Of a stretch of DNA of 64,000 nucleotides, positions 4,364 to 42,096 are shown piece by piece. The notes below the pieces were generated by a model. That model saw nothing but the letters and a program-made list of their open reading frames with translations, was not told where the DNA came from and ran no database searches. This DNA comes from an uncultured Candidatus Poseidoniales archaeon (lineage in GTDB: Archaea; Thermoplasmatota; Poseidoniia; Poseidoniales; Poseidoniaceae): assembly GCA_964015875.1 (NCBI GenBank), contig CAXHEV010000002.1, positions 141,307 through 205,306 of the forward strand, given 5' to 3'. How positions within the stretch are numbered: position 1 is the stretch's first letter; every line of letters begins with the position of its first letter. A program made the translations under genes and the position numbers.

Positions 4364-5212
4364 TCAGCGTAGAGAACCGGCTACAAGGAGAAGCAAGAGT
4401 AACAAAGCAACAATGCCTACAAATATCGTCACAATGGAGGCCACTCCAACGCTTAGTCCCACAGCAGTTGCCTGTATCGCTTCGCCCAGTGGATTACCTT
4501 TTGCCTGTGGGTTGAGTTGCTGGTGCTGTACCATAACGGTTGATTCAGGAACGGATGTTGTAGGAACATTGTAGCTAACCACACCAGAGTGAACTTGGGG
4601 CGTGACCGCTGGGGTTTGAATCAAATTGTATCCATAAGTGGACAAAAAGAAACCAAAAGGCAGGAGCAGACAACACGCACTGAACATTGTTGGCAAGAAT
4701 GTGCCTTGGCCGCATCCACGTGATACATAATCGTCTCCCGACATCAAAACCATCTCACAATTGAACCAGAGTTTCCACTCCCCGAGTGCAAGCCAGATAC
4801 CAAACAGCATCACACCCACGCCGAGGATCATTATACCAATGGATAATTGTTGCTTGGTGAGTCCAAATGTGAGTTCTTCAGTAGGCTGATTGGTATTCGA
4901 TTCAGTTTGAACAGTAGCTTCAAGAGTTCCGGAGCGCAACACACTTTGCTTAGTCGAGCATGATGGACAGGAGATCATCCCCTCGTAGTCTGCAGGTACA
5001 CGAAGAATAGTTGGGCATTTGATGCACTGAATCTCGATGGTTTTTCTTTTCTGTACCGCATCACTGATGATCTGAGGTGGCGGTGTGAGTGATCTATCTG
5101 CCTCTTTGAGACGATTGATGAGAACTTTCTTTGTCCCCGAAACAGGTAGATTTCGCTCTTTGCACAAACCTTTCAATTTCAACACAGTGAAACTTTCATA
5201 ATCGTCATGCAT
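4364..5212 (-). CDS. SAP-domain / zinc-ribbon membrane protein
   Basis: 282 aa. The N-terminus FTVLKLKGLCKERNLPVSGTKKVLINRLKE is a canonical SAP motif. It is followed by CIKC-x16-CPSC (a zinc ribbon) and then several hydrophobic helices ending in LLLLLLLVAGSLR. Confidence 0.7.
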   Translation of the reverse strand: MHDDYESFTVLKLKGLCKERNLPVSGTKKVLINRLKEADRSLTPPPQIISDAVQKRKTIEIQCIKCPTILRVPADYEGMISCPSCSTKQSVLRSGTLEATVQTESNTNQPTEELTFGLTKQQLSIGIMILGVGVMLFGIWLALGEWKLWFNCEMVLMSGDDYVSRGCGQGTFLPTMFSACCLLLPFGFFLSTYGYNLIQTPAVTPQVHSGVVSYNVPTTSVPESTVMVQHQQLNPQAKGNPLGEAIQATAVGLSVGVASIVTIFVGIVALLLLLLLVAGSLR

Positions 5213-6909: not shown

Positions 6910-7326
6910 ATGTGGCCAGCGGTCAGAGAAGTGGCGCGTAGAATATTGCGCGAAGATTCCCTCGTCATTCAAGCCAGCGAATCGTACATGCAAGAACTCG
7001 ATGAGCTCATCTTGGCCATGGGCGATGCCCAGCCTGCTCGACTGGACTTCCCCACCCTGGAAGTAATGCAGTCTTCCATCATCGATATTACGCAACGGAC
7101 GACGACATCGAACCAATCTGTGCATCTAGCACGCCTCGGTAAACAAGAACCAGAGCCCGATGTATGCTGGATCCCATTAGCCACAGATGAGGCATGGAAC
7201 AGCGTATTGGAAGCATGCCGCGAACTTTTGGAGGCGGGTTATCCAGGCTGTGTAGGATGTGGGGGGCCAAACAGTGAAGACGAATGGGATGAAGCTAAAT
7301 CAAGGAAAAATTGGAGTTCCGCTTAG
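6910..7326 (+). CDS. Hypothetical acidic protein
   Basis: The track ORF 6610-7326 overlaps pyrD for about 235-300 nt, depending on which pyrD start is used. The first ATG clear of pyrD is 6910 (MWPAVREVARRIL..., 138 aa). No family recognised. Confidence 0.45.
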   Translation: MWPAVREVARRILREDSLVIQASESYMQELDELILAMGDAQPARLDFPTLEVMQSSIIDITQRTTTSNQSVHLARLGKQEPEPDVCWIPLATDEAWNSVLEACRELLEAGYPGCVGCGGPNSEDEWDEAKSRKNWSSA

Positions 7327-7437
7327 TCAGTAATCGCTGAAAAAATTCAATCAATTTTCATACAGATACTAAAGTATCTGTGAGCAAAGAGGGTCAGAGA
7401 GAGAGTTCAAGTAGCCTCGTCGATGCGGTGTAGAACG

Positions 7438-10185
7438 ATGACGATTGTAATTCTGGCCGAGAAACCAAGCGTCGCCAACGATATTGCCAATGTCCTCGGA
7501 GTAAAAGGAAAACACGAAACTCACTGGCAAGGAGACGGTATTGTCGTGACATGGGCCGTCGGTCATTTGCTGCAACTGAAGTACATGGATGATTACGATG
7601 CAGCCTTCAAGGATTGGAGGAAAACCGTTGACCGTCTACCATATGTTCCTGAGACCTTTGAGTACAAGCCAATTGGAGGACGCGGAAAAAAACAACTCAC
7701 TGCTGTTTCAAAATTGATCAAGGATAAATCCGTCACAGAAATAGTCAATGCATGTGACGCTGCTCGAGAAGGAGAATTGATTTTTCGAACCATTGTTCAG
7801 CATACGAAATCCAAAGTAAAAACATCTCGAATGTGGCTCCAATCAATGACCAAGGATGCCATTACAACTGCTTACGAAGGACGCAAAGACGGAATTGAAT
7901 ACAATGCGTTAAGGGATGCTGCATACGCTCGTTCAGAAGCCGATTGGATCATTGGCATGAATGGTTCAAGAATTGCCAACTCGTTCCTACCACGTAAGAG
8001 AAATGAACGTGCGGCGATTTCACTCGGTCGAGTTCAGACGGCTACCCTCGCAATGGTAGTCGACCACGAACTCGAGGTTCTGGGCCACAAACCACTGCCA
8101 TTTTGGCAACTTAATGCAGATTTCAAGGCTGGAGAGGCAACCTGGAACGCACGATGGGAGCGCAAAAACCACGTAGACAACCCAGACGAACCAGATTACA
8201 AAGCACACAGAATTGTAGAACAAGCAGAGCACGATCGGCTCAAACAAATCGTGGAGTCTGGTGCCCAAGCAAACGTAGACGAAACTCGGCGGGACGCCAA
8301 GGAGAAGCCACCTCTCAATTTTGATTTGACTAGCCTGCAACGTGAAGCAAATAACCTCTGGTCGTGGTCAGCAAAACGAACACTTGGCATCGCCCAGAAC
8401 CTCTATGCCGACCTCAAACTTACGACGTATCCTCGTACAGATTCTAGACACTTACCGACAGATATGAAGGAAGAAACCAACAAAATCATTCGGCAACTCG
8501 GCGCACAGAGCGATTACAATGACTACAGTTCAAAATTAATTTCTGATGGACTTCAAAACACGGGACGGAATTTCGATAACGCAAAGGTTAGCGACCACTT
8601 TGCTATTATCCCAACAGGGAAAATTCCTGATGGTTTCTCGAGCACAGATCACCAAAAATTGTACGATTTAATCGTCCGTACGTTTCTCGCTTCTTGGCAC
8701 CCACCTGCCGTTTGGGATGTGCAAAAGCGTATTGCTACGATTGAAGGGGAACGCTTCCTGAAGGAAGTCAGAACGATTAAAACGCCTGGCTGGAGAGCCG
8801 TACGACCAAAGAAGCAAGATTTACCTGAGGGTTGGAATACGCTTCCAACAAACCCCTGTAAGGCAGACATCAGTGAATTTGAATTCAAAGAAGAACGATC
8901 GAAACCAAAGGGGCGACTCAAGGAAGCTGGATTATTGCGACTTATGGAGCACGCAGGAAAACACATCGAGGATGAAGATCTTGCTGCAGCACTGAAGGAA
9001 AAGGGGTTAGGGACGCCCGCTACCCGAGCGGATACCATAGAGAAATTGGTTGACCGAGGGTACATTCTTCGTGCCCGTGGTGGAAGTATTAGCGCTGCTG
9101 CACATGGGATTCGAATTATCGATGTGCTCCGCAGAATACCCGTGGAGTGGATAACATCTCCAGAACTCACGGGAGAAATGGAGGCATCGTTGCTTCGTGT
9201 ACAACGAGGTGACGATCCCAAAGCGACCTACATGAACGCTATAGTAGAACAAACCACCTCACTGGTCGAGAGAATCAAGAACCACGACCGGGCGGAACTC
9301 TATCTCAAGGAGGAATCGGTTGGATGCTGCCCCTCATGCTCTGCTGATATCAAAGAGACAACTCTTTCTTATCAATGCGAAAAGAATGAAGGACGTGACA
9401 AAGGTTGTCCATTCGTATTTTGGAAGGACACCAGTGGTCGCTGGTTTGACAGGGTCACGGCAGCCCGCTTAATCGAAGAAAGAGAACTCAGTGATCTTCA
9501 TGGATTTTTCAGCAGGTCTGGGGAAGCCTATGTTGCTAGCGTGAAGTTAACCGACGAAGGGCGCGTTGAATTTGTTGGGGGAGGGCAATCCTCAACCGAT
9601 GAAAATGATGAAGAATTATGCCCTTGTCCAACATGCGATCATGGCACGATTCGTATTGGCCAAACCATGTATGCTTGTGACTATGCAGATTGTAAATTCC
9701 GCGGCTTGTCCAAAGAAATGTGTAAGCGGTTCATCACACCAGATGAAGCCAAGGTCATTATGACCAAAGGTAAATCAGATCTTCTGGAAGATTTCACTTC
9801 AAAACGTGGAAGGCCTTTCAAAGCCTTCCTAGTCATTGAGAACACCCGAGTAAAGTTTGATTTCCCACCACGAGAAGCGGCCGCTGATGCAAAGCGATTC
9901 CCAATCTCACCCGGCGTCGTTGCCGTCTGTCCGAACACGAAGGTGAACATCGTAGAAACCGAGACACACTACCAAGCTGAAGAAGGGTCAACAGGTTGTA
10001 AATTACAGATTGCAAGGGAGATTTCGAAGAGAGAAATCACTCGAGAAGAGGCAAAGGAATTAATTGAAAAGAGAACACTTGGCCCTTTCCATGATTGGAA
10101 GTCTAAGAAAACTGGTAAAGACTTCTCCGCATCTATTTACATCAAAAAGAACGAGAGCATTGGCTACAAGTTCGCTAAGCGCTGA
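7438..10185 (+). CDS. topA: DNA topoisomerase, type IA (archaeal TopA / topoisomerase III-like) with C-terminal zinc ribbons
   Basis: MTIVILAEKPSVANDIA (catalytic Glu context), the TOPRIM block ACDAAREGELIF, the active-site Tyr block LTTYPRTDSRHL, and the GTPATRA block. The C-terminal region has repeated CxxC...CxxC ribbons (CPSCSADI..., CPCPTCDHG...CDYADC, CPNTK...). Confidence 0.9.
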   Translation: MTIVILAEKPSVANDIANVLGVKGKHETHWQGDGIVVTWAVGHLLQLKYMDDYDAAFKDWRKTVDRLPYVPETFEYKPIGGRGKKQLTAVSKLIKDKSVTEIVNACDAAREGELIFRTIVQHTKSKVKTSRMWLQSMTKDAITTAYEGRKDGIEYNALRDAAYARSEADWIIGMNGSRIANSFLPRKRNERAAISLGRVQTATLAMVVDHELEVLGHKPLPFWQLNADFKAGEATWNARWERKNHVDNPDEPDYKAHRIVEQAEHDRLKQIVESGAQANVDETRRDAKEKPPLNFDLTSLQREANNLWSWSAKRTLGIAQNLYADLKLTTYPRTDSRHLPTDMKEETNKIIRQLGAQSDYNDYSSKLISDGLQNTGRNFDNAKVSDHFAIIPTGKIPDGFSSTDHQKLYDLIVRTFLASWHPPAVWDVQKRIATIEGERFLKEVRTIKTPGWRAVRPKKQDLPEGWNTLPTNPCKADISEFEFKEERSKPKGRLKEAGLLRLMEHAGKHIEDEDLAAALKEKGLGTPATRADTIEKLVDRGYILRARGGSISAAAHGIRIIDVLRRIPVEWITSPELTGEMEASLLRVQRGDDPKATYMNAIVEQTTSLVERIKNHDRAELYLKEESVGCCPSCSADIKETTLSYQCEKNEGRDKGCPFVFWKDTSGRWFDRVTAARLIEERELSDLHGFFSRSGEAYVASVKLTDEGRVEFVGGGQSSTDENDEELCPCPTCDHGTIRIGQTMYACDYADCKFRGLSKEMCKRFITPDEAKVIMTKGKSDLLEDFTSKRGRPFKAFLVIENTRVKFDFPPREAAADAKRFPISPGVVAVCPNTKVNIVETETHYQAEEGSTGCKLQIAREISKREITREEAKELIEKRTLGPFHDWKSKKTGKDFSASIYIKKNESIGYKFAKR

Positions 10186-10256
10186 ACACTGTAAATTGGC
10201 CTGAATACAGGCCATTGTGGGCGAAGATTGATGGGTGGGACTTCCTAGATACATGC

Positions 10257-11471
10257 ATGCTCGACCGGTCTTGGGACGTTATCATCGTCGGGGCGGGCCC
10301 AACAGGTGGGCGTGCTGCGACCCACCTTGCCTCACTTGGACACTCGGTATTGATGCTTGAAGAGCATAATGAAATCGGGCGACCATTCCAATGCGCAGGC
10401 CTGGTGACTCCAAAAGCGATGCATGAAGTGGGACTCTACGATTCTGTGCTTCAAGAGATTGATGGCGCCCGAATCCACGGGCCCGATGGGACATTGGTGC
10501 CAGTCGGGACTGAAGGTAAGTTGCGCACCTATGTGGTGTGTCGAAAGCAATTCGATCAAGGCGTGGTCCAACAAGCCATGCAAGCAGGCGCCACACTGTC
10601 ATTGAATTCCACCCCTGTTGAAGCCACAGCGACAGATGATGGTGTGGACTTACAGATCAACATCGATGGTGAAGTTGTATCCATGAACACCAGATTGCTC
10701 ATTGGTTGTGATGGTGCTCACAGCTGGACGCGCAGGAATTTTAAGATGGGGCGACCCAACGAAATGATGATTGGATTTCAAACTGAAGTTCAGGGTTATG
10801 AAGGTAAAAATCGCTGGCTTGAAATGTACAGTGGTTCGGCGATTGCTCCCGGATTTTTTGCTTGGGTGATTCCCTCCGGTTTTGGAAGCCATAGGATTGG
10901 AGTTTGGTCGACACCCGACCGCCTTGACGGAAAAAGTGTGGAACAGTGCTATGAAGACCTGTTGAATCACGAAATGTGGCACGATAGGTTCGAAAACATC
11001 ACTGAAACAGCAAGGTATTGTGGACCTATTCCGAGTGGGATGGTGAAGAAAACCGTAAGCAACCGAGTCATCCTCCTTGGCGATGCTGCAGGGATGGCCA
11101 AACCTACAACAGGTGGGGGCATTGGCCCTGGGTTCCGTCAAATAAAGGGTATTCTAAAGCCGCTGTCTGAGGCAATTAAAGCGAATGAACTCAATGAAAA
11201 GCAACTCCACAAAATTACGAATAAGCACTTCATGGCGATGAAGAAAGATCAAGACAAAGCTCGTGCGTTGCGCAACTTACTTGTTTCAGATACTTCCGAT
11301 AAGGAACTCAACAAACATTTCACCAATTTCGCGAGGGAAGATGTTCTGGAGTTAATCAACGAAATTGGTGACATTGAAAAACCAGTTCCGCTTGGCCTTG
11401 CCCTGATCAAAAAAGTTCCAGCATTCCGGCGTTTGGCACTTCGTGCAGGAACTCGATTGATGTTCCGCTAG
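10257..11471 (+). CDS. Geranylgeranyl reductase family FAD-dependent oxidoreductase (archaeal lipid saturation)
   Basis: WDVIIVGAGPTGGRAATHLASLGHSVLMLEE (FAD Rossmann fold), FQCAGLV, IGCDGAHSWTRR and LLGDAAGMAKPTTGGGI. The start is taken at MLDRSWDV; the open frame begins at 10215. Confidence 0.85.
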   Translation: MLDRSWDVIIVGAGPTGGRAATHLASLGHSVLMLEEHNEIGRPFQCAGLVTPKAMHEVGLYDSVLQEIDGARIHGPDGTLVPVGTEGKLRTYVVCRKQFDQGVVQQAMQAGATLSLNSTPVEATATDDGVDLQINIDGEVVSMNTRLLIGCDGAHSWTRRNFKMGRPNEMMIGFQTEVQGYEGKNRWLEMYSGSAIAPGFFAWVIPSGFGSHRIGVWSTPDRLDGKSVEQCYEDLLNHEMWHDRFENITETARYCGPIPSGMVKKTVSNRVILLGDAAGMAKPTTGGGIGPGFRQIKGILKPLSEAIKANELNEKQLHKITNKHFMAMKKDQDKARALRNLLVSDTSDKELNKHFTNFAREDVLELINEIGDIEKPVPLGLALIKKVPAFRRLALRAGTRLMFR

Positions 11472-36270: not shown

Positions 36271-37404
36271 TCATTCCTCTTCGAGCAGCAGTTTAGCTTG
36301 CCGTGTCGTAGGCATTGCAAGTTGGCCAAGCCTGAAACCAATCAAACGTACGGAACGCTTGTGATCAACGTTCAGCGCGAAGAGGCGCTCTGCAAGTCTT
36401 GCAAACACATCCACATCATCCATAGCAACCGGAATCGAGCGGCCGTGGGTATGAGTTTCAAACCCGGTGTATCTCACTTTAACCTCACACAGGCGTCCCG
36501 CAACACCGATCGATTTCGCCTTCGTCATTACCCGTTCGACGAGTGAATGAAGATGCTTGAGGACCTTCTCCTTATCCGATTGGTCTGTCCTAAAAGTTTG
36601 TTCTTTACCGATTGATTTACGACTTCTCAAAGGACTTACTTCCTTGCTGGTAGCACCGTCAACCACTCGAATTAACCATGAGGCAAAGCGTTCGCCTGCA
36701 ATTCGACCGAGGGCCAACTCGCCGAGTTCATATGCTTCGTCTACGGTGTTGAAGCCCCATTCGGCCAGCTGAGTCGCCCTTTTTGGTCCAATACCAGGCA
36801 CGTCCCGCAGAGAACGGCCGACAAAGAAATCTAATGTTTCATCCGGAAGCATTCGAAAGATACCGTTTGGCTTGTTGATTTCACTCGACATCTTTGCGAG
36901 GATTCGGGTAGGTGCTATGCCAAATGAGGCGGTTAAACCGAGTTCCTCTACGATTTGACGTTGCAAATCCCTGCACATTGCATAAGCCGCATCCCAGTCG
37001 CCATTCACTGCTTGTGTAATGTCAAGGTAGGCCTCATCGATGCCTGCTTTCTCAAAATGCTCAGCTGGCTCTTTCAAGATGGCCATAACCTTGCGTGAAG
37101 CACGACTGTACAATCCACGCGTCCCTCCAATGTAATGACCGGGACCAAAGGGGGAGCCTGGACATCGCCTCCAAGCCTCTCCGATCGGCATCGCAGAGCG
37201 AATTCCGTAAGCCCTCGCTGCGTAATTACAAGTCGAAACAATACCCCGTCCTCTGCCCCCTTGGGGGTCAGAACCGATGATTAACGGACGCTCAGGATCT
37301 AAGTCGCGATGTAGAATTTCGACCGCAGCAAAAAAAGCGTCCAGATCACAGTGAACGAGAATACGTTCGCTCTCTTGCAAGGACTCTGCCGAATCCTCCC
37401 TCAT
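36271..37404 (-). CDS. dinB: Y-family DNA polymerase IV (DinB/Dpo4-like) with catalytic residues intact
   Basis: ILVHCDLDAFFAAVE, GIVSTCNYAARAYGIRSAMP, AGIDEAYLDIT and the HhH block VPGIGPKRATQLAEWG. The start is taken at MREDSAES; the open frame extends to 37509. Confidence 0.9.
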   Translation of the reverse strand: MREDSAESLQESERILVHCDLDAFFAAVEILHRDLDPERPLIIGSDPQGGRGRGIVSTCNYAARAYGIRSAMPIGEAWRRCPGSPFGPGHYIGGTRGLYSRASRKVMAILKEPAEHFEKAGIDEAYLDITQAVNGDWDAAYAMCRDLQRQIVEELGLTASFGIAPTRILAKMSSEINKPNGIFRMLPDETLDFFVGRSLRDVPGIGPKRATQLAEWGFNTVDEAYELGELALGRIAGERFASWLIRVVDGATSKEVSPLRSRKSIGKEQTFRTDQSDKEKVLKHLHSLVERVMTKAKSIGVAGRLCEVKVRYTGFETHTHGRSIPVAMDDVDVFARLAERLFALNVDHKRSVRLIGFRLGQLAMPTTRQAKLLLEEE

Positions 37405-37522
37405 ACCACGTGTCCAGTGTCCACGGTGTTTCAAGTTGATGACAAGATCCACACGACTACATTCACTTTTTTCGCAAGGGTGGGGGGAAGGAAAGAGAGC
37501 CCCCTTCACAACCTTCCGAGGT

Positions 37523-38212
37523 ATGGCAACAAATGCATCAATTCAACGGTTTGAACGGCCCCTTGACTTCTCAGTCATTGCCCCGAAAAGAGGGCACATC
37601 TACCAACTTCGCGGGCACGGGCATGCTGGGCGTACGATGCGAAAATACGCTGAAACATGGGCGGCTTCTGCACTCTTGCGAGGGGAATGTGTGCATTGGA
37701 TTGATGGTGCATCGCGAATGAACCCTACTCGTATCCTTCGTCGGTTCCCCAGAAGCGAAGCCTCAGCTCGAGATCATCTGCATCGATTGTATGTTGGGCG
37801 TGGATTCACAGTCCACCAACTGGCAACACTGATTCAACGCTTGGAATGTGAAGTGTCGATTACGGCGGCACCACTGGTCATTATTGATGCGCCACTTGCC
37901 ATGCACCTTGACCGACAGGTTGGTGACCATGAGGCGCGTTGCCTGATGCGCCAACTCATCCAACACTTGCAGTCTGTTGCCGTGCTCAACAACGTTGCTG
38001 TTCTCATCATCACAGAGCATATGCCAACGTCGAAACGACACCAACACTTACTCACGATGGTCGAACGAAATTCATCTCATCAGCTGATTGAGCATGTAAG
38101 GGGTCGAGGACGAAATACCCGGCGATGGCTATCACATGAGCCAAGTGGAAGCACTGGTCAGTGGCCACAAAACCAGAATGTATTGAGGCGGTACATCGAG
38201 CCAAACCAGTAA
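37523..38212 (+). CDS. RecA-superfamily (RadB/ImuA/KaiC-like) protein with a degenerate Walker A
   Basis: About 229 aa. GHIYQLRGHGHAGRTMRKYAETWAASALLRGECVHWIDGASRMNP sits where a P-loop and beta-strand are expected. Also LYVGRGFTVHQLATLIQRLE, APLVIIDAPLAM (Walker-B-like hhhhD) and LMRQLIQHLQSVAVLNNVAVLIITEH. The fold assignment is by pattern only. Confidence 0.6.
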   Translation: MATNASIQRFERPLDFSVIAPKRGHIYQLRGHGHAGRTMRKYAETWAASALLRGECVHWIDGASRMNPTRILRRFPRSEASARDHLHRLYVGRGFTVHQLATLIQRLECEVSITAAPLVIIDAPLAMHLDRQVGDHEARCLMRQLIQHLQSVAVLNNVAVLIITEHMPTSKRHQHLLTMVERNSSHQLIEHVRGRGRNTRRWLSHEPSGSTGQWPQNQNVLRRYIEPNQ

Positions 38213-38220
38213 AGTGAACC

Positions 38221-40674
38221 TCAATTCGCTGGACTTAATGATGATTCATCTTGACCTTTGAACGATTCAAGAGTAATGCGTTTTTGCCCCATAGAAACCT
38301 CTTCCTCATCCCATCCAAATGGAGCAAGAATTGCCCAAATAGCACGAATGGCAAGAGCAGTATAATGCCCAATATCTGGCCGACCAGAAGGAGGATTGGG
38401 CCCGGTCAGTTCTTCGACCAAGAGAACGCGTTCGTGCTGGACGGTTCCCTTCGAAGCAATCACTGCAAATCGAACCTTTCCACCGGGAGGCACTGTGACG
38501 CCCTGAAGTCGTCCTCGAAGCAAAGCAGCGTGCGCCAATGTAGCCACATCAAAATCTCCAAGTTCACGATTAATTCGGCGGGCAACCACGAGATCGAGTA
38601 AGCTGACATCATCCTTCTCAAGGGCATTCAGATGCTGTCGTAACAATCGAGCTACAGCCACCTGACCATCGAATGTGGGGATACCCTGTTGGTCATCAGA
38701 ATGTTCGATCAACAACTGGAGTGCTTGGCGTTGCAAATGCGCAACCCATCCACAGGTGGAATGTTGACGCTCTTCGATCCCCCGGACCTTGAGTCCGTGC
38801 TGTCCATAGGCCCAGTACTTGGTCAAGGAACCAGCACCATGAACACGACTTGGAACAAAGCCGATGAAACGGTAAAGGTCTTCATATTCAAGCGGGATAC
38901 CAACGCGCTGTGAAACTCGCTGTGCAAAAGCGTGGGCATCATGAACTCGTTGCTCCGGAGTTCGTTGTCCTCGGTCTTGAATCCAAACACAGTCAACGAT
39001 GGCATGAAGCACTACCCAACCATCTTCCTCAGCCATCTGAATGGTTTCCAGAAGAATGTCCCTCGCCCATGCGCAAATCGCTTCATGCGCTTCAATGCGT
39101 CCAAAGCGGGCGTTTTTGTAGCCAGTGTAGCCAAAGCAGGTGACAAGCAACCATTTGAGGGCGTTTTGTTGTTGATCGAAACAATCCCCTTTGGATTTCA
39201 CCTTCGTTTTCAAAAACCTACGGCGTTCGATAAGAGGCGCTACAATACGTCCAAGGAATCCATGAACTCGGGCACATGTGTGTGAGGATAAACCCGGCAC
39301 TGGGAGAGCTTGTGCTGAGCGAACTGGAAACAAACCTGCGCCCAGGTGCCTTCGAGTATGGCGTTCGCTGAACGTTCGTTCTGCTTCATCAGGATGAAGG
39401 GGTACAAAGGCGGCTGCAGATGGTGCTTTATCGGCTTGACAACAGGGGCAGTTGAGCGTTTCAGTGGATATGTTTCGCGTGGCGATAATGCTTGGAAAAA
39501 GGCTCGCAAAATCAAGTTCGATGACGTGCTCGTAGACACCAGGTTGGCTATCGAGGTAAAGACCTCCTCGATCTGCATGCAGCAACGACCAAGCAGTTTT
39601 GGTATCTTCGGGACGGTTCTTTTTCCAAGGCACGAGAACGCCGTCTTCCATGGCTGTACGCATTTGTATGGCACTGATAACAGAACCAGGTGAGAGCCGG
39701 GAGATGTCTTGAGGCGATTGTTGGGAGTGTCTGGCAAGTTCAAACAAACCTTGGAGCCCACCCTCTCGAACGATGAAGCTGCCAACTCGGTCAATGTGCA
39801 AGCGTCCATACAATGGGATGTAGCCGTCCTTATGCATGGTTTGACCGTACGAATGAATCGTACGTGCAGAAGTTCTGGCCTCCAGAGGTCGTCCATCTCG
39901 ACTTAGCGAAAAGGGCATTGCGCACTTCGCAGCCATACGGATCAGAGCCGGGAGGTGTAAACCATCGCCTCCATGCGTAACAACAACGTCTGGATCGAGT
40001 TTTTCCATGGTCTGTTCAAGACGTTGTAAAAAATGCGATGCGCAAGTGTTGTGATCCCGAACCAAAGTGACGGAGGGTGTGCTCGAGGTATCGCATGTAC
40101 CGTCTGGTGAACAAGTGCGGAATTCAATTCGTTCTATTTCGGCTTCATCACTATGAAATCCATTCGCTGTCTGGTAGGCAAACCCCAAGTGAACGATGGT
40201 CAGATTGGGGAAGAGATCTTCGTCATGGGGTTCTGAATGAAACACATGACCATCCCAACGAACTTTTTGAAAGGGCTTGATACGATGTTCAAGGAGGAAT
40301 CGTTGAGCGAGGTGTGCATCGACAGAATAGAGGGTATAATGCTTATACTGACCTCTCGATTCAATATGCGTTGCCACTTTTTTTAACTGCCAGCAGTTGT
40401 GAACATCTATTTCGAGGACCTCATCGACTTCAGATGCATCAAGGGACAACCGGGAGCGATGCATACGCATGAGGCCGAGACCAAAACGGTCTCGAATTTC
40501 GGGTTGTTCCAGCCACGACCAGAGGTGTTGCAGGCGTTGACGATTGGCATGAACGTGAAGTGAAGGGCACCACGGAATATTGAGTTTCATCGACCCGTTA
40601 GTCTCTCCAACTAACCACACATCCAAGGAAGTCCCATTCGGCGCTGCTTGGACATCAAGAATTGTTCCGATCAT
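38221..40674 (-). CDS. polB: Family-B DNA polymerase with degenerate 3'-5' exonuclease motifs (PolB2-like?)
   Basis: Motif A is IELDFASLFPSIIATRN, the motif-B region is NALKWLLVTCFGYTGYKNARFG, and the motif-C region is GWVVLHAIVDCVWIQD. The N-terminus MIGTILDV resembles archaeal PolB starts; the open frame extends to 40710. Exo I and II positions read VHLGFAYQT and VTHGGDGLHLPALI. No intein-sized insertion. Confidence 0.85.
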   Translation of the reverse strand: MIGTILDVQAAPNGTSLDVWLVGETNGSMKLNIPWCPSLHVHANRQRLQHLWSWLEQPEIRDRFGLGLMRMHRSRLSLDASEVDEVLEIDVHNCWQLKKVATHIESRGQYKHYTLYSVDAHLAQRFLLEHRIKPFQKVRWDGHVFHSEPHDEDLFPNLTIVHLGFAYQTANGFHSDEAEIERIEFRTCSPDGTCDTSSTPSVTLVRDHNTCASHFLQRLEQTMEKLDPDVVVTHGGDGLHLPALIRMAAKCAMPFSLSRDGRPLEARTSARTIHSYGQTMHKDGYIPLYGRLHIDRVGSFIVREGGLQGLFELARHSQQSPQDISRLSPGSVISAIQMRTAMEDGVLVPWKKNRPEDTKTAWSLLHADRGGLYLDSQPGVYEHVIELDFASLFPSIIATRNISTETLNCPCCQADKAPSAAAFVPLHPDEAERTFSERHTRRHLGAGLFPVRSAQALPVPGLSSHTCARVHGFLGRIVAPLIERRRFLKTKVKSKGDCFDQQQNALKWLLVTCFGYTGYKNARFGRIEAHEAICAWARDILLETIQMAEEDGWVVLHAIVDCVWIQDRGQRTPEQRVHDAHAFAQRVSQRVGIPLEYEDLYRFIGFVPSRVHGAGSLTKYWAYGQHGLKVRGIEERQHSTCGWVAHLQRQALQLLIEHSDDQQGIPTFDGQVAVARLLRQHLNALEKDDVSLLDLVVARRINRELGDFDVATLAHAALLRGRLQGVTVPPGGKVRFAVIASKGTVQHERVLLVEELTGPNPPSGRPDIGHYTALAIRAIWAILAPFGWDEEEVSMGQKRITLESFKGQDESSLSPAN

Positions 40675-40951
40675 CCGTCTCCATCCTCGCTGCTTCCAGC
40701 CGTTCCACACGTTGCTGCAATCGCATGTTTTGTGATGTCAATTCGAGCATCATGGACAACAGCATTGGCTTCCAAACCTCATGCGAAGGAAGCATACCAC
40801 CAGCTGTTCTTCGCTGACGAACGCCGTTGAGGAGTTCGTCGAACATTTGTTTTTCGGCAAATGGAAGCGCACGGCGAAACGGCTCCAATGTACCGAGTTC
40901 ATCTTCAATTCGCATCCGCCATGTTGGTACTGTTCGACCCATACCTTGCAC
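40655..40951 (-). CDS. Small helical protein, overlapping the polB start
   Basis: 98 aa (…EPFRRALPFAEKQMFDELLNGVRQRR…WKPMLLSMMLELTSQNMRLQQRVERLEAAR). Its stop overlaps the polB start by 20 nt, or 56 nt with the longer polB frame. It lies 57 nt downstream of the serA-like stop, on the same strand. Confidence 0.5.
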   Translation of the reverse strand: MQGMGRTVPTWRMRIEDELGTLEPFRRALPFAEKQMFDELLNGVRQRRTAGGMLPSHEVWKPMLLSMMLELTSQNMRLQQRVERLEAARMETDDRNNS

Positions 40952-41008
40952 AACGACTCGATGAGGACCATCTTTGGCATGACCCTCGCTGATGCAAGTG
41001 AAAGTGAA

Positions 41009-41995
41009 TCATCCAAGCAGATGGCTATTGACCGTCGTTTCACAGACGCCTCCATCAAGCACCTTCATGATGGCAAGAGCGATATCTCGGCCGACACGCG
41101 CTTGAGCTTCCATTGTTGCGGCTCCGATATGGGGGGTACCATGGAAGTGTGGATGCTGCAAAAGGGGTGCACTGGCAGGCACCGGCTCGATTTCGAAGAC
41201 ATCGAGTGCTGCGGAGGAAAGAGTCCCCTTCTCGAGTGCCGCAAGCATAGCATCTTCATCGATGATTCCACCTCGGGCACAATTCACGATGTGATTCCCA
41301 CAGGCAATACCATCATTTGAGCGCCCAGGCATAAGTTTGAGGCGCTCTGCATTCACTAAATGGTGGGTTTCATCATTCAGGTTGCAGTGAATGGATATGT
41401 GCGTGCAGTTTCCAAAAAGTGTGTCGACATTTTTGTGAAGTGTTGTGTTTTGGGCTTTTGCCACCTTCGGAGGGAGGTAGGGATCATAGGTATGAACGAT
41501 CATTCCAAGTGCTTGGGCAATAGCTCCAACACCTTGAGCAATTCTTCCAAACCCAATCAAGCCGAGGTTTTTCCCAGACAATTCTGTCCCTTTCATTGCC
41601 TTCTTTTCCCAACGACCATCCCGTAAACTACGGTCAGAACGTGGAATGTGTCGCAGGGATGCCAGAAGATGTCCAATGGTCAATTCGACGACTGATTGAG
41701 TCGAGGCACGAGGCGCATTGACAACAGGAATGCCTGCTTTAGCAGCAGCAATAATGTCAATATTGTCAACACCAACACCCGCTCGTCCAATTACGGAAAG
41801 ACGGTCACCGGAGGCTGCAATCACCTCGGCCGGAAGTTTTGTGGCACTGCGAACAACTATCGCATCGAATTCTGAAAGAGCGCCTTGAACTAAATCGCCT
41901 TTAGAAATCGTACCGAGGACGACTTCATGACCTGATTGCTCGAGGAGGGATACCGCGTCTTTAGCCATACCATCTGTCACAGCGATCCTCGCCAT
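41009..41995 (-). CDS. D-isomer-specific 2-hydroxyacid dehydrogenase (D-3-phosphoglycerate dehydrogenase-like, no ACT domain)
   Basis: MARIAVTDGMAKDAV..., NAD-binding block GKNLGLIGFGRIAQ, NCARGGIIDE and the catalytic His block TPHIGAAT. The start is taken at MARIAV; the open frame extends to 42076. Confidence 0.85.
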   Translation of the reverse strand: MARIAVTDGMAKDAVSLLEQSGHEVVLGTISKGDLVQGALSEFDAIVVRSATKLPAEVIAASGDRLSVIGRAGVGVDNIDIIAAAKAGIPVVNAPRASTQSVVELTIGHLLASLRHIPRSDRSLRDGRWEKKAMKGTELSGKNLGLIGFGRIAQGVGAIAQALGMIVHTYDPYLPPKVAKAQNTTLHKNVDTLFGNCTHISIHCNLNDETHHLVNAERLKLMPGRSNDGIACGNHIVNCARGGIIDEDAMLAALEKGTLSSAALDVFEIEPVPASAPLLQHPHFHGTPHIGAATMEAQARVGRDIALAIMKVLDGGVCETTVNSHLLG

Positions 41996-42096
41996 GTTGG
42001 CCGTCCAACCGAGAAGGGTCATGAATCTTAGGCCATGTTGGAACAAAGCCCCAATGTTTGAAACGGTCATTCGCATGCGGTAAGGTGAGGGGTCCT

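What the first reader, a model, noticed from the sequence alone, without database searches (positions are those of the whole stretch)
36271..40951. Candidate archaeal damage-tolerance module: DinB, a P-loop-degenerate RecA-fold protein, and an exonuclease-degenerate PolB with an overlapping small ORF
Four adjacent genes share a DNA-damage-tolerance flavour.
- An apparently catalytically intact Y-family polymerase lies at 36271-37404 (-).
- A RecA-superfamily protein whose Walker A lacks the invariant Lys is transcribed divergently from it, 118 nt away (37523-38212, +).
- A family-B polymerase converges on that gene with an 8-nt gap (38221-40674, -). Its Exo I/II motifs are substituted while the polymerase motif-A Asp is kept.
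- A 98-aa helical ORF (40655-40951) overlaps the polB start.

In bacteria, the ImuA (RecA/SulA-like, non-canonical P-loop) - ImuB (Y-family) - DnaE2 cassette forms an SOS mutasome. In Sulfolobales, the motif-degenerate PolB2 (Dpo2) has been reported to be damage-inducible and to perform translesion synthesis.

A combination of Y-family polymerase, ImuA-like protein and exo-minus PolB is not, to my knowledge, a described archaeal system. It would be a functional analogue built from different parts. The genes sit on both strands, so co-regulation is not guaranteed.
Basis: partly seen in the sequence, partly recalled or inferred. Interest (0 to 1): 0.8.

Follow-up and report, generated by a model that had tools for sequence, protein, structure and literature searches.

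The report
Known PolB2 mutasome cassette beside DinB
Three of the four genes are the already described archaeal PolB2 translesion-polymerase operon (PolB2, its small partner PPB2 and an inactive RadA), here in a marine Poseidoniales archaeon. The DinB polymerase next to it is a neighbour in one lineage only, not a conserved part of the system.

Summary

**The system is published.** Makarova 2014 and Timinskas 2025 describe it.
- The 98-aa ORF is PPB2 (arCOG07300). Its true start is the ATG at 40942, giving 95 aa and the hallmark N-terminal MGRTVPTWR.
- The "P-loop-degenerate RecA-fold protein" is iRadA. Its fold is Rad51/RadA, not RecA or ImuA.
- The polymerase is a PolB2: exonuclease-dead, with motif C reading IVD instead of DTD.
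- The Timinskas supplement lists Poseidoniales operons with this gene order as group 3b. It tabulates Y-family neighbours in 46 of 95 of them.

**DinB is a neighbour, not a component.** It is intact and resembles bacterial Pol IV.
- I examined 98 related loci. PPB2>PolB2><iRadA is found wherever the DNA reaches.
- DinB is adjacent in only one of at least 7 genomic contexts. That context is a clade-wide block that also holds ValRS and a 2-hydroxyacid dehydrogenase.
- A more distant relative has dehydrogenase>DinB directly adjacent with no cassette, so the cassette is an insertion or deletion there.

**Apparently new:** tandem TTTCAC hexamers lie about 50-60 nt upstream of both PPB2 and iRadA in nearly all loci.

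**Verdict:** already known, low interest.

The parts
40655..40942 (-). PPB2 ('Partner of PolB2', arCOG07300; Pfam DUF8156), 95 aa. It has an N-terminal MGRT arm with Arg3 and Arg9. Its last 20 nt overlap the polB2 start.
   Evidence: The first nine residues, MGRTVPTWR, are invariant in 20 aligned homologues. Of 67 homologues, 66 carry a precomputed PF26485 hit. BLASTP against published PPB2 sequences gives E 5e-14 and E 3e-15 at 36-39% identity. The AF2 model has a free N-terminal arm and three helices, the last one long (54-94).
38221..40674 (-). PolB2: a family-B DNA polymerase with a dead exonuclease site and a non-canonical motif C. It is the predicted catalytic subunit of the translesion 'mutasome'.
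   Evidence: PF00136 matches at 2.8e-22. The NCBIfam models NF004418 and NF004416 score about 375 bits, against 77 bits or less for the models named DNA polymerase I and DNA polymerase II. Its exonuclease-to-palm region scores 110 bits against a published haloarchaeal PolB2, versus 14 + 43 bits against a Thermococcus PolB.
38992..39000 (-). PolB2 motif C, residues 559-561, reads I-V-D where canonical enzymes have D-T-D. The first catalytic Asp is lost, as in S. islandicus Dpo2 (IID).
   Evidence: From the alignment to the Thermococcus PolB. HAIVDC is invariant in 121 sequences. The Dpo2 IID state is cited in the paper.
39490..39516 (-). PolB2 motif A, LDFASLFPS (residues 387-395), with the catalytic Asp388 retained.
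   Evidence: L, D, S, L, F and P are invariant in 121 sequences.
39949..39978 (-). Degenerate Exo II region, THGGDGLHLP. It corresponds to canonical YNGDNFDF, with the catalytic Asp replaced by His.
   Evidence: The Exo I region (residues 159-167) is variable and has no conserved acidic residues.
38257..38280 (-). C-terminal RITLESFK in PolB2, a candidate PCNA-binding (PIP-like) motif.
   Evidence: A [ST]-L-x-x-F motif is conserved at the C-terminus of Poseidoniales PolB2. Several homologues have canonical Q-x-x-L-x-x-F. It resembles the motifs the paper predicts, ATSLSAFE and VTRLSSFL. This is an inference and was not tested.
37523..38212 (+). iRadA: a RadA/Rad51-fold protein without the N-terminal domain and with a degenerate P-loop. 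It converges on polB2. In this window it is shortened by 14 residues by a TAA at 38210-38212.
   Evidence: The AF2 model has pLDDT 85 and pTM 0.85. Foldseek matches RadA, Rad51 and DMC1 ATPase cores at E about 3e-10 and TM 0.63-0.70. It matches TIGR02237 RadB at E 1e-6 and PF08423 at 7e-4, both below cutoff. hhalign against a published iRadA gives probability 75% and E 2.5e-5. The truncation is shown.
37613..37636 (+). Degenerate Walker A of iRadA, GHGHAGRT, with the Lys replaced by Arg.
   Evidence: This position is R, K, Q, S or H across 23 homologues, so it is not under selection for ATP binding.
40996..41009 (-). Tandem hexamer element ATTCACTTTCACTT. It ends 55 nt upstream of the PPB2 ATG and begins on the last base of the dehydrogenase stop codon. 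It is a candidate regulatory site.
   Evidence: The element sits 46-67 nt upstream of PPB2 in nearly all of about 90 loci.
37461..37473 (+). A weaker copy of the same element, ATTCACTTTTTTC. It lies 50 nt upstream of the iRadA ATG, oriented toward iRadA, in the middle of the 118-nt iRadA/dinB intergenic region.
   Evidence: Relatives have TTCACTTTCAT at the same position. The distance to the iRadA ATG is mostly 47-66 nt, while the distance to dinB varies.
36271..37404 (-). DinB (Pol IV-type Y-family polymerase), catalytically intact. It is a lineage-specific neighbour and possibly an inserter partner, but not a conserved component of the cassette.
   Evidence: Searches give its identity. Searches give the distribution of the adjacency.
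41009..42076 (-). 2-hydroxyacid dehydrogenase, the upstream flank of the cassette. In a more distant relative its homologue is followed directly by dinB.
   Evidence: One search identifies it. Searches show the L016-L018 arrangement.

Best explanation
The locus is the Poseidoniales (Marine Group II) version of the known archaeal PolB2 translesion-synthesis cassette.

**Proposed mechanism**
- PPB2 and PolB2 are co-transcribed and probably translationally coupled, because they overlap by 20 nt.
- iRadA is a separate, convergent transcription unit.
- Both units carry the same oriented upstream element, two or three TTTCAC hexamers about 50-60 nt before the ATG. This would keep them co-regulated despite lying on opposite strands.
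- By homology with the published models, the products assemble into a PolB2-iRadA-(PPB2)3 complex. The PPB2 MGRT arm inserts between PolB2 and iRadA.
- The complex lacks proofreading. It is expected to extend mismatched or lesion-containing primer ends, as shown for S. islandicus Dpo2, and is probably tethered to PCNA through a C-terminal PIP-like motif.

**DinB.** It is an independent, intact Pol IV-type enzyme. It sits next to the cassette only in the clade where the cassette lies between a 2-hydroxyacid dehydrogenase gene and dinB. It may cooperate as the lesion inserter, but it is not part of the conserved module.

**Shown here:** gene identities, motif states, folds, gene order and its distribution, and motif conservation.

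**Inferred:** complex formation, polymerase activity, damage induction, PCNA binding, and the regulatory role of the motif.
For: **Component identity**
- *PPB2:* the MGRTVPTWR arm is invariant and matches the published definition. BLASTP to published PPB2 gives E 3e-15 and 5e-14. The model has three helices.
- *iRadA:* Rad51/RadA core fold with no N-terminal domain. Its Walker A is degenerate and variable. It matches a published iRadA.
- *PolB2:* the exonuclease site is dead and motif C reads IVD, while motifs A, B and C are invariant in 121 homologues. It is closer to a published PolB2 than to PolB3 over the exonuclease-palm region.

**Literature**
- The operon and its damage induction in Sulfolobales are described.
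- Poseidoniales are listed as group 3b.

**Gene order**
- PPB2>PolB2><iRadA is present in every one of about 98 loci that covers it.

**The motif**
- It scores at least 9/12, usually 10-12/12, at 46-67 nt upstream of PPB2 and mostly 47-66 nt upstream of iRadA.
- 93 of 109 genome-wide matches in 1.12 Mb lie at these two promoters.

**DinB is not integral**
- It is adjacent in 21 of 53 informative loci, all in one flank context out of at least 7.
- The paper's Table S1 shows IMS rising and falling with 2-Hacid_dh and tRNA-synt_1 in group 3b (46, 45 and 42 of 95). IMS occurs near only 10 of 1728 other operons.
- L016-L018 have the dehydrogenase followed directly by dinB with no cassette, in a syntenic region.
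- The motif keeps a constant distance and orientation relative to iRadA, not dinB.
Against: - No formal PolB1/PolB2/PolB3 phylogeny was built.
- Complex formation could not be modelled, because only single chains can be predicted here.
- The conserved D(K/R) motif of PolB2 described in the paper is not recognisable in Poseidoniales sequences.
- The PPB2 monomer model is mediocre (pTM 0.43) and found no structural match.
- The local Pfam copy lacks DUF8156, so the window protein itself gave no Pfam hit.
- There are no expression data for any Poseidoniales.
- Against dismissing DinB:
  - The adjacency has survived a deep divergence within the clade (PolB2 45%, iRadA 34%, DinB 68% identity in L015).
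  - dinB shares the motif-bearing intergenic region.
  - Two other contexts also place a DNA-repair gene beside the cassette, a photolyase-domain gene and an MGMT-domain gene.
Confidence: 0.82

Rival explanations
1. In this Poseidoniales clade the four genes form one co-regulated damage-tolerance island. The cassette landed between the dehydrogenase and dinB, which cut dinB off from its former operon promoter. dinB is now transcribed from the bidirectional, motif-bearing region it shares with iRadA. DinB inserts opposite lesions and PolB2 extends.
For: - The adjacency is kept across the whole clade, down to PolB2 45% and iRadA 34% identity.
- In L016-L018 dinB follows the dehydrogenase at a 4-nt gap. 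An operon like this would be split by the cassette.
- The single motif copy lies mid-way in the 118-nt divergent region.
- In the L010-type context an MGMT-domain gene is likewise divergent from a motif-bearing PPB2 promoter. In the L044-type context a photolyase-domain gene abuts PPB2.
- A search listing (title and abstract only, not read in full) indicates Dpo4-to-Dpo2 polymerase switching at abasic sites in Sulfolobus (PMC8721586).
Against: - The conserved block also contains housekeeping genes (ValRS, the dehydrogenase, peptidase S8) at the same frequency, so the pattern is ordinary synteny.
- At least 6 other contexts lack DinB.
- The motif is oriented toward iRadA and spaced relative to it. 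Its distance to dinB varies, and there is no dinB-oriented copy.
- dinB in L016-L018 has no tandem motif upstream.
- IMS is not enriched near PolB2 outside group 3b: 10 of 1728 operons.
Confidence: 0.2
2. PolB2 is a catalytically inactive polymerase homologue. Under this view it acts with iRadA and PPB2 as a structural or regulatory factor at stalled forks or origins, not as a translesion polymerase. This was the 2014 interpretation.
For: - The first Asp of motif C and the exonuclease catalytic residues are lost.
- Makarova et al. 2014 proposed inactivation and a regulatory role.
Against: - S. islandicus Dpo2 has the same kind of substitution (IID), yet it is an active polymerase and is required for targeted mutagenesis (literature).
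- Motifs A, B and the variant motif C are absolutely invariant across 121 Poseidoniales sequences at 51-91% overall identity. This fits selection on an active site.
Confidence: 0.07
3. The module is an archaeal analogue or member of the bacterial ImuA-ImuB-DnaE2 mutasome. Under this view the 229-aa protein plays ImuA and DinB plays ImuB.
For: - Both are multi-protein error-prone polymerase systems that include a RecA-superfamily protein with a non-canonical P-loop.
- Both contain a Y-family protein.
Against: - The polymerase is family B, not C.
- DinB has all its catalytic residues, unlike ImuB.
- The RecA-fold protein is of Rad51/RadA type and belongs to the published iRadA family.
- DinB is not a conserved partner.
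- The published comparison is with Pol V, not ImuABC.
Confidence: 0.03

Closest known systems
PolB2 operon group 3b (PPB2-PolB2-iRadA) of Poseidoniales and other archaea, as catalogued by Timinskas, Timinskas & Venclovas 2025 (PMC11791011)
   Same: - The same three genes in the same order.
- The same taxon.
- The PPB2 MGRT arm.
- iRadA without an N-terminal domain or ATPase residues.
- PolB2 without the first Asp of DxD.
- The same flanking Pfam families: IMS, 2-Hacid_dh_C, tRNA-synt_1 and Lactamase_B.
   Different: Nothing essential differs. This window's iRadA has a private premature stop. Three features seen here are not mentioned in the parts of the paper that I read: the convergent orientation of iRadA, the TTTCAC element, and the cassette's insertion or deletion next to dinB.
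Sulfolobus/Saccharolobus islandicus Dpo2 (PolB2) operon, group 3a
   Same: - The same order, PPB2-PolB2-iRadA.
- Motif C is IID there and IVD here.
- The exonuclease is inactive.
- It is experimentally damage-inducible, and it acts as a mismatch and lesion extender.
   Different: - It belongs to a different phylum.
- Poseidoniales PolB2 is longer and has an extra loop of about 42 aa after motif A.
- Regulation there is by Orc1-2 through the A(N)TTTC element. No orc1/cdc6 gene neighbours group 3b operons.
- Nothing here has been tested experimentally.
E. coli Pol V mutasome (UmuD'2C-RecA-ATP)
   Same: - It is a translesion polymerase with a recombinase-family subunit and a small oligomeric accessory protein.
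- The architectural parallel is drawn in PMC11791011.
   Different: - The catalytic subunit is Y-family there, not B-family.
- RecA is the active cellular recombinase there. Here the subunit is a dedicated inactive paralogue.
- Pol V is under LexA control.
Bacterial ImuA-ImuB-DnaE2 cassette
   Same: It is an error-prone, multi-protein polymerase system with a degenerate RecA-superfamily component.
   Different: - It uses a C-family polymerase.
- ImuB is a catalytically dead Y-family hub, whereas this DinB is intact.
- ImuA is RecA/SulA-like, not Rad51/RadA-like.
- No defining feature of that cassette is met here.
Two-polymerase inserter/extender translesion synthesis (eukaryotic Y-family polymerases with B-family Pol zeta; Sulfolobus Dpo4 with Dpo2)
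   Same: A Y-family polymerase and an exonuclease-deficient B-family polymerase are encoded side by side.
   Different: Cooperation between the two is only a hypothesis here, and the adjacency is confined to one clade.
Sulfolobales DNA-damage-responsive element 5'-A(N)TTTC-3', bound by Orc1-2
   Same: - Both are non-palindromic and oriented.
- Both lie just upstream of the core promoter of polB2-type genes.
- The Poseidoniales repeat contains ACTTTC.
   Different: - Here there are 2-3 phased hexamers (TTTCAC).
- The resemblance rests on 5 specified bases.
- The binding protein is unknown.

Membership tests
PolB2 mutasome operon (PolB2 + PPB2 + iRadA) | A family-B polymerase whose 3'-5' exonuclease active site is lost | tested here: met
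   Exo I FDIET has become VHLGF and is variable in relatives. Exo II NGDNFD has become GGDGLH.
PolB2 mutasome operon (PolB2 + PPB2 + iRadA) | First Asp of the polymerase DxD (motif C) substituted, as in most PolB2, with the rest of the palm conserved | tested here: met
   Motif C reads HAIVDC and is invariant in 121 sequences. The motif A Asp and the motif B Lys are kept.
PolB2 mutasome operon (PolB2 + PPB2 + iRadA) | An adjacent PPB2: about 90 aa, three helices, a conserved N-terminal MGRT arm, and Arg at positions 3 and 9 | tested here: met
   The protein begins MGRTVPTWR. The model has three helices. It is 36-39% identical to published PPB2, E 1e-14 or lower.
PolB2 mutasome operon (PolB2 + PPB2 + iRadA) | An adjacent RadA/Rad51 homologue lacking the N-terminal domain and the ATPase residues | tested here: met
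   The fold matches RadA C-terminal ATPase domains over the whole 229 aa. The Walker A Lys position is variable. It matches a published iRadA. Other ATPase residues were not checked one by one.
PolB2 mutasome operon (PolB2 + PPB2 + iRadA) | The three genes contiguous and conserved as a unit | tested here: met
   All loci that cover the region have PPB2>PolB2><iRadA. One sub-lineage has 2.3 kb inserted before iRadA.
PolB2 mutasome operon (PolB2 + PPB2 + iRadA) | Phylogenetic placement in the PolB2 clade rather than PolB1, PolB3 or casposon PolB | tested here: inconclusive
   No tree was built. Similarity favours PolB2. The exonuclease-palm region scores 110 bits against a published PolB2 and 14 + 43 bits against a Thermococcus PolB. 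NCBIfam models NF004418 and NF004416 score about 375 bits, against 77 bits or less for the models named DNA polymerase I and DNA polymerase II.
PolB2 mutasome operon (PolB2 + PPB2 + iRadA) | Conserved D(K/R) loop motif and a preceding beta-alpha motif that binds iRadA | tested here: inconclusive
   The aligned position reads C-A/G-R-x-H-G-F, with no conserved Asp. The preceding loop is about 42 aa longer and has an invariant F449-P450, with consensus F-P-x-A.
PolB2 mutasome operon (PolB2 + PPB2 + iRadA) | Forms a PolB2-iRadA-(PPB2)3 heteropentamer | not testable with these tools
   Only single-chain prediction is available.
PolB2 mutasome operon (PolB2 + PPB2 + iRadA) | DNA-damage-inducible expression and lesion or mismatch extension activity | not testable with these tools
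   This is known only for Sulfolobales.
Y-family DNA polymerase IV (DinB) | IMS palm/fingers plus the little-finger domain, catalytic Asp/Asp/Glu, and a steric gate | tested here: met
   PF00817 and PF11799 both match. NF002677 scores 259.2 bits against a cutoff of 256. D20, D123, E124 and F24/F25 align with E. coli Pol IV.
ImuA-ImuB-DnaE2 mutasome | A C-family DnaE2 polymerase | tested here: not met
   The only polymerases in the module are family B and family Y. No other polymerase was found among the window ORFs of at least 200 aa.
ImuA-ImuB-DnaE2 mutasome | ImuB, a Y-family homologue lacking the catalytic residues | tested here: not met
   The catalytic residues of DinB are intact.
ImuA-ImuB-DnaE2 mutasome | ImuA, a RecA/SulA-like protein | tested here: not met
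   No ImuA or SulA family hit was found in Pfam or NCBIfam. The fold ranks Rad51/RadA well ahead of RecA.
Sulfolobales-type DNA-damage-responsive promoter element | An oriented A(N)TTTC hexamer immediately upstream of BRE/TATA | tested here: inconclusive
   ACTTTC occurs within the conserved TTTCAC repeats, 46-67 nt from the ATG. Transcription start sites are unknown, and a match of this length is weak evidence.
Sulfolobales-type DNA-damage-responsive promoter element | Bound by an Orc1/Cdc6 paralogue and required for damage induction | not testable with these tools
   No orc1/cdc6 gene was found among the window ORFs of at least 200 aa scanned with Pfam, and none lies near group 3b operons.

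The most novel reading that the evidence does not exclude
In Poseidoniales the PolB2 cassette is a movable three-gene unit. It carries its own damage-responsive operator, (TTTCAC)2-3, on both transcription units. This operator would be the euryarchaeal counterpart of the Sulfolobales Orc1-2 element. The cassette tends to settle beside other DNA-damage genes: dinB, a photolyase-domain gene, and an MGMT-domain gene. In the window's clade its insertion into a dehydrogenase-dinB operon would have placed dinB under the bidirectional iRadA promoter, creating a co-induced inserter-extender island.
Probability: 0.15. Interest if true: 0.55.

Novelty: already known. Interest (0 to 1): 0.25.

Why it matters
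The core finding adds nothing new. The PolB2-PPB2-iRadA mutasome was predicted in 2013-2014 and modelled in 2025, with Poseidoniales operons included.

Two by-products may be useful.

1. **A regulatory lead.** A sharply defined, oriented tandem-hexamer element marks both promoters of the cassette in an abundant, uncultivated group of marine archaea. This gives a concrete handle on DNA-damage regulation outside Sulfolobales. In sunlit surface waters, UV damage is a daily stress.

2. **Cassette behaviour.** The cassette behaves as a discrete insertion or deletion, and it repeatedly neighbours other repair genes. This supports treating the three genes as the functional unit. It also offers a natural comparison for testing inserter/extender cooperation, using lineages with and without dinB beside the cassette.

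Tried and rejected

3. **Local Pfam and NCBIfam scans of the 98-aa ORF.** There was no hit, because the local Pfam copy evidently lacks PF26485. The family link came from precomputed hits on homologues.

4. **Matching NCBI accessions of Poseidoniales homologues to the paper's supplementary tables.** No match was found. The stored tables are truncated.

5. **Searching the paper for a statement on the convergent orientation of iRadA in group 3b.** None was found, so I do not know whether 3a and 3b differ by orientation.

6. **Enrichment of the 10-mer TTCACTTTCA with one mismatch in the window.** It was not enriched: 6 matches against 8.7 expected. The signal comes from positional conservation across lineages, not from counts within the window.

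7. **Searching for further members of a motif regulon.** In 1.12 Mb of loci, the 16 matches outside the two promoters include one PPB2 site the classifier missed. Only one of the rest precedes an ORF start at the right spacing.

8. **Locating the paper's D(K/R) motif in the window PolB2.** The DK at residues 415-416 is not conserved, and the aligned position has no Asp.

9. **Considered and rejected: a mobile-element context.** The window holds ordinary chromosomal genes, including topoisomerase I, AlaRS, ValRS, RtcB and SHMT.

10. **Considered and rejected: an N-terminally extended DinB from the GTG at 37509.** Relatives have in-frame stops there, by manual reading of the sequences. Gene callers mostly use the ATG.

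Full report
**Observation**

The four ORFs are present as described:
- DinB at 36271-37404 (-).
- A 229-aa gene at 37523-38212 (+), 118 nt away and divergent from DinB.
- An 817-aa family-B polymerase at 38221-40674 (-), converging on the 229-aa gene with an 8-nt gap.
- A small ORF at 40655-40951 (-), overlapping the polymerase start.

Pfam and NCBIfam confirm the broad identities.
- DinB has IMS and IMS_C domains. It passes the Pol IV equivalog cutoff, 259.2 against 256 bits.
- The 229-aa protein gives only sub-threshold Rad51 and RadB hits.
- The polymerase hits DNA_pol_B.
- The small ORF hits nothing in the local libraries.

G+C is unremarkable across the window. The neighbours are ordinary chromosomal genes: ValRS, a 2-hydroxyacid dehydrogenase, peptidase S8, AlaRS, RtcB, topoisomerase I and others. 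Homologue names place the window in Candidatus Poseidoniales, also called Marine Group II.

**What it is**

A literature search found that this three-gene combination is a described system.
- Makarova, Krupovic and Koonin (2014, PMC4104785) reported that PolB2 genes sit in a predicted operon with an inactivated RadA-family ATPase and a small alpha-helical protein of about 90 aa, arCOG07300.
- Timinskas et al. (2025, PMC11791011) renamed the partners iRadA and PPB2. They modelled a PolB2-iRadA-(PPB2)3 complex and catalogued 1823 operons.

Each defining feature was tested here.

*PPB2.*
- The paper defines it by a conserved N-terminal 'MGRT' arm with Arg3 and Arg9.
- The window ORF reads MQG-MGRTVPTWR. 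The ATG at 40942 gives a 95-aa protein beginning MGRTVPTWR.
- These nine residues are invariant in 20 aligned homologues.
- Of 67 homologues, 66 carry a precomputed PF26485 (DUF8156) hit.
- BLASTP against PPB2 sequences printed in the paper's supplement gives E 5e-14 and 3e-15.
- An AF2 model shows a free N-terminal arm and three helices, the last one long.

*iRadA.*
- An AF2 model (pLDDT 85, pTM 0.85) matches RadA, Rad51 and DMC1 ATPase cores over its full length.
- E is about 3e-10 and TM 0.63-0.70. The first RecA appears at rank 50.
- It has no N-terminal domain.
- The Walker A Lys position is R, K, Q, S or H in relatives.
- Its profile aligns to a published haloarchaeal iRadA (E 2.5e-5). 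The two share a signature around GRGFTVHQLATLVE.

*PolB2.*
- Aligned to Thermococcus PolB, the Exo I and Exo II catalytic residues are gone.
- The motif A Asp and the motif B Lys are kept.
- Motif C reads IVD instead of DTD. This is the same kind of change as IID in S. islandicus Dpo2.
- In 121 Poseidoniales homologues at 51-91% identity, motifs A, B and C are invariant while Exo I is variable.
- Over the exonuclease-palm region it scores 110 bits against a published haloarchaeal PolB2, versus 14 + 43 bits against the Thermococcus enzyme.
- I did not build a tree, so formal clade placement remains open.

The paper's supplement lists Poseidoniales operons as 'group 3b (PPB2-PolB2-iRadA)'. Sulfolobales are group 3a with the same order.

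**Is DinB part of it?**

I gathered 98 related loci and mapped the six window proteins onto them.

- Every locus that covers the region has PPB2>PolB2><iRadA, so the convergent iRadA is the rule in this order.
- DinB is adjacent in 21 of 53 loci that extend at least 1.5 kb beyond iRadA.
- All 21 belong to one flank context. That context also contains ValRS on one side and the dehydrogenase, a 381-aa gene and peptidase S8 on the other.
- At least six other right-flank contexts and at least seven other left-flank contexts lack DinB.

This agrees with the paper's Supplementary Table S1.
- In group 3b, IMS is near 46 of 95 operons.
- 2-Hacid_dh_C is near 45 of 95 and tRNA-synt_1 near 42 of 95.
- In all other groups together, IMS is near 10 of 1728.

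So DinB travels with a synteny block and not with the cassette.

The block is old. In L015, ValRS is 75%, DinB 68% and the dehydrogenase 67% identical to the window, while PolB2 is only 45% and iRadA 34%.

L016-L018 come from a more distant relative (DinB 49%, dehydrogenase 51%).
- RtcB (60%) and a homologue of the 394-aa membrane protein lie in corresponding positions.
- The dehydrogenase there is followed after 4 nt by dinB, with no cassette between them.

The three genes therefore behave as one insertion or deletion at this site.

**DinB itself**

- It is intact.
- It resembles bacterial Pol IV more than archaeal Dbh or Dpo4: 157 against 134 and 122 bits in PDB, and the top NCBIfam models are named DNA polymerase IV.
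- It has few close relatives. Only two full-length 50% clusters exceed 42% identity.

**A conserved cis-element**

Aligning upstream regions across lineages whose flanks are otherwise unalignable revealed two or three phased TTTCAC hexamers.
- In the window, ATTCACTTTCACTT lies at 40996-41009 (-) and ends 55 nt before the PPB2 ATG.
- A weaker copy, ATTCACTTTTTTC, lies at 37461-37473 (+), 50 nt before the iRadA ATG.

Across about 90 loci, the best match to TTTCACTTTCAC is usually 10-12 of 12.
- It lies 46-67 nt upstream of PPB2 and mostly 47-66 nt upstream of iRadA.
- It always points toward the downstream gene.
- A score of at least 10 has a background probability of 0.019 per 160-nt window.

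A stricter pattern occurs 109 times in 1.12 Mb, and 93 of those are at these two promoters.

The exact 10-mer is not over-represented in the window as a whole. The evidence is positional conservation.

The element explains how two convergent transcription units could be co-regulated.
- It contains ACTTTC, which fits the Sulfolobales damage-responsive hexamer A(N)TTTC.
- That hexamer is bound by Orc1-2 and lies just upstream of BRE/TATA.
- A five-base resemblance is only a lead, and no orc1/cdc6 gene neighbours group 3b operons.

With respect to dinB:
- The window copy lies in the middle of the shared 118-nt region but is oriented toward iRadA.
- Its distance to iRadA is roughly constant, while its distance to dinB varies; the whole intergenic region is only 73 nt in L015.
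- There is no dinB-oriented copy, and dinB in L016-L018 has no tandem motif.

**Points in favour of a looser 'damage island' idea**

- In the L010-type context, a 98-aa MGMT DNA-binding-domain gene is divergent from PPB2 and shares its motif-bearing region.
- In the L044-type context, a 657-aa photolyase-domain gene ends 75 nt before PPB2.
- Three DNA-damage neighbours in at least 7 contexts is more than I would expect by chance. This is a post-hoc count on few independent events.
- By its title and abstract in the search listing, a Sulfolobus study reports enzymatic switching between Dpo4 and Dpo2 at abasic sites (PMC8721586; not read in full). An inserter-extender partnership is therefore biochemically plausible.
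- I put the four-gene co-regulated model at about 0.2.

**Mechanism proposed**

*Shown here:* identities, motif states, folds, gene order, the 20-nt PPB2/PolB2 overlap (conserved in L001), and the shared promoter element.

*Inferred from the published models and the Sulfolobus experiments:*
- assembly into a PolB2-iRadA-(PPB2)3 complex, with the PPB2 arm wedged between the two large subunits;
- proofreading-free extension from mismatched or damaged termini;
- damage-induced expression.

*Also inferred:* PCNA tethering through the C-terminal RITLESFK of PolB2.
- This belongs to an [ST]-L-x-x-F motif conserved in Poseidoniales. Several homologues have canonical Q-x-x-L-x-x-F.
- It resembles the motifs the paper predicts in haloarchaeal PolB2.

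**Comparison and novelty**

- The locus meets all the sequence-testable defining features of the PolB2 operon.
- It meets none of the defining features of ImuA-ImuB-DnaE2.
- The published analogy is with Pol V.
- The system, its presence in Poseidoniales, and even the Y-family neighbour counts are already in the literature. The finding is therefore already known.
- The TTTCAC element, the cassette insertion or deletion next to dinB, and the recurrent repair-gene neighbours are small additions that I did not see reported in the parts of the papers I read.

**Limits**

- There is no phylogeny, no multimer modelling and no expression data.
- Whether the genome also encodes PolB3 and PolD cannot be answered from this 64-kb window. 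No other polymerase was found among its ORFs of at least 200 aa.

Noticed in passing
window 40996-41009 (-) and 37461-37473 (+); same positions in L001-L098: Two or three phased TTTCAC hexamers lie about 50-60 nt upstream of both PPB2 and iRadA in nearly all Poseidoniales loci, always pointing toward the gene. Of 109 matches in 1.12 Mb, 93 are at these two promoters. The repeat contains ACTTTC, which fits the Sulfolobales A(N)TTTC damage element. In the window's own sub-clade the iRadA copy is degraded, with its second hexamer reading TTTTTC.
   Followed up: yes
window 38210-38212: The window's iRadA ends at a TAA where all close relatives have CAA (L019, L007, P0121 and others). This removes 14 poorly conserved C-terminal residues. 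The ancestral stop is at 38252-38254 and would overlap the polB2 3' end. It is either a private nonsense change or a sequencing error.
   Followed up: yes
L016-L018, about 7037-9125: In a more distant relative, homologues of the dehydrogenase (51%) and DinB (49%) are adjacent on one strand with a 4-nt gap, and no PolB2 cassette lies between them. RtcB and a homologue of the 394-aa membrane protein are nearby, so the region is syntenic with the window. A sodN-sodX pair sits just upstream.
   Followed up: partly
L044 3406-5379 (and 15 similar loci); L010/L011 5556-5852 (and similar loci): Other lineages place different DNA-damage genes beside the cassette. A 657-aa photolyase-domain gene ends 75 nt before PPB2. 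A 98-aa MGMT DNA-binding-domain gene, possibly alkyltransferase-like, is divergent from PPB2.
   Followed up: partly
L033 about 7980-10265; L035 12690-15033: One sub-lineage has about 2.3 kb, with two membrane-protein ORFs (353 and 294 aa), inserted between polB2 and iRadA. This is consistent with iRadA being an independent transcription unit.
   Followed up: no
window 36271-37404 (-): This DinB resembles bacterial Pol IV more than archaeal Dbh or Dpo4. It has very few close relatives in a library of 1.8 billion proteins. Its C-terminal QAKLLL fits the Q-x-x-L-x-L pattern of the E. coli Pol IV beta-clamp motif (recalled from memory). Horizontal acquisition from bacteria is possible.
   Followed up: partly
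window about 39295-39420 (-), PolB2 residues about 418-459: Poseidoniales PolB2 has an extra loop of about 42 aa after motif A, compared with haloarchaeal PolB2 and Thermococcus PolB. It has invariant F449-P450 and a consensus F-P-x-A, which resembles the Rad51 FxxA oligomerisation motif. It lies in the loop that the 2025 paper says binds iRadA. The window itself reads FPVR.
   Followed up: partly
L015, L096 versus window: Within the syntenic clade the cassette genes diverge much faster than their neighbours. PolB2 is 45% and iRadA 34% identical, against DinB 68%, the dehydrogenase 67% and ValRS 75%. This indicates either rapid evolution in place or replacement of the cassette at the same site.
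   Followed up: no
window 4364-5212 (-): A 282-aa protein has an N-terminal SAP domain (PF02037, E 1e-12). As far as I recall, this DNA-binding motif is better known from eukaryotes.
   Followed up: no
L046-type loci, left flank of PPB2: A protein of about 540 aa with weak Tudor and Agenet domain hits lies upstream of the cassette in about 11 loci.
   Followed up: no
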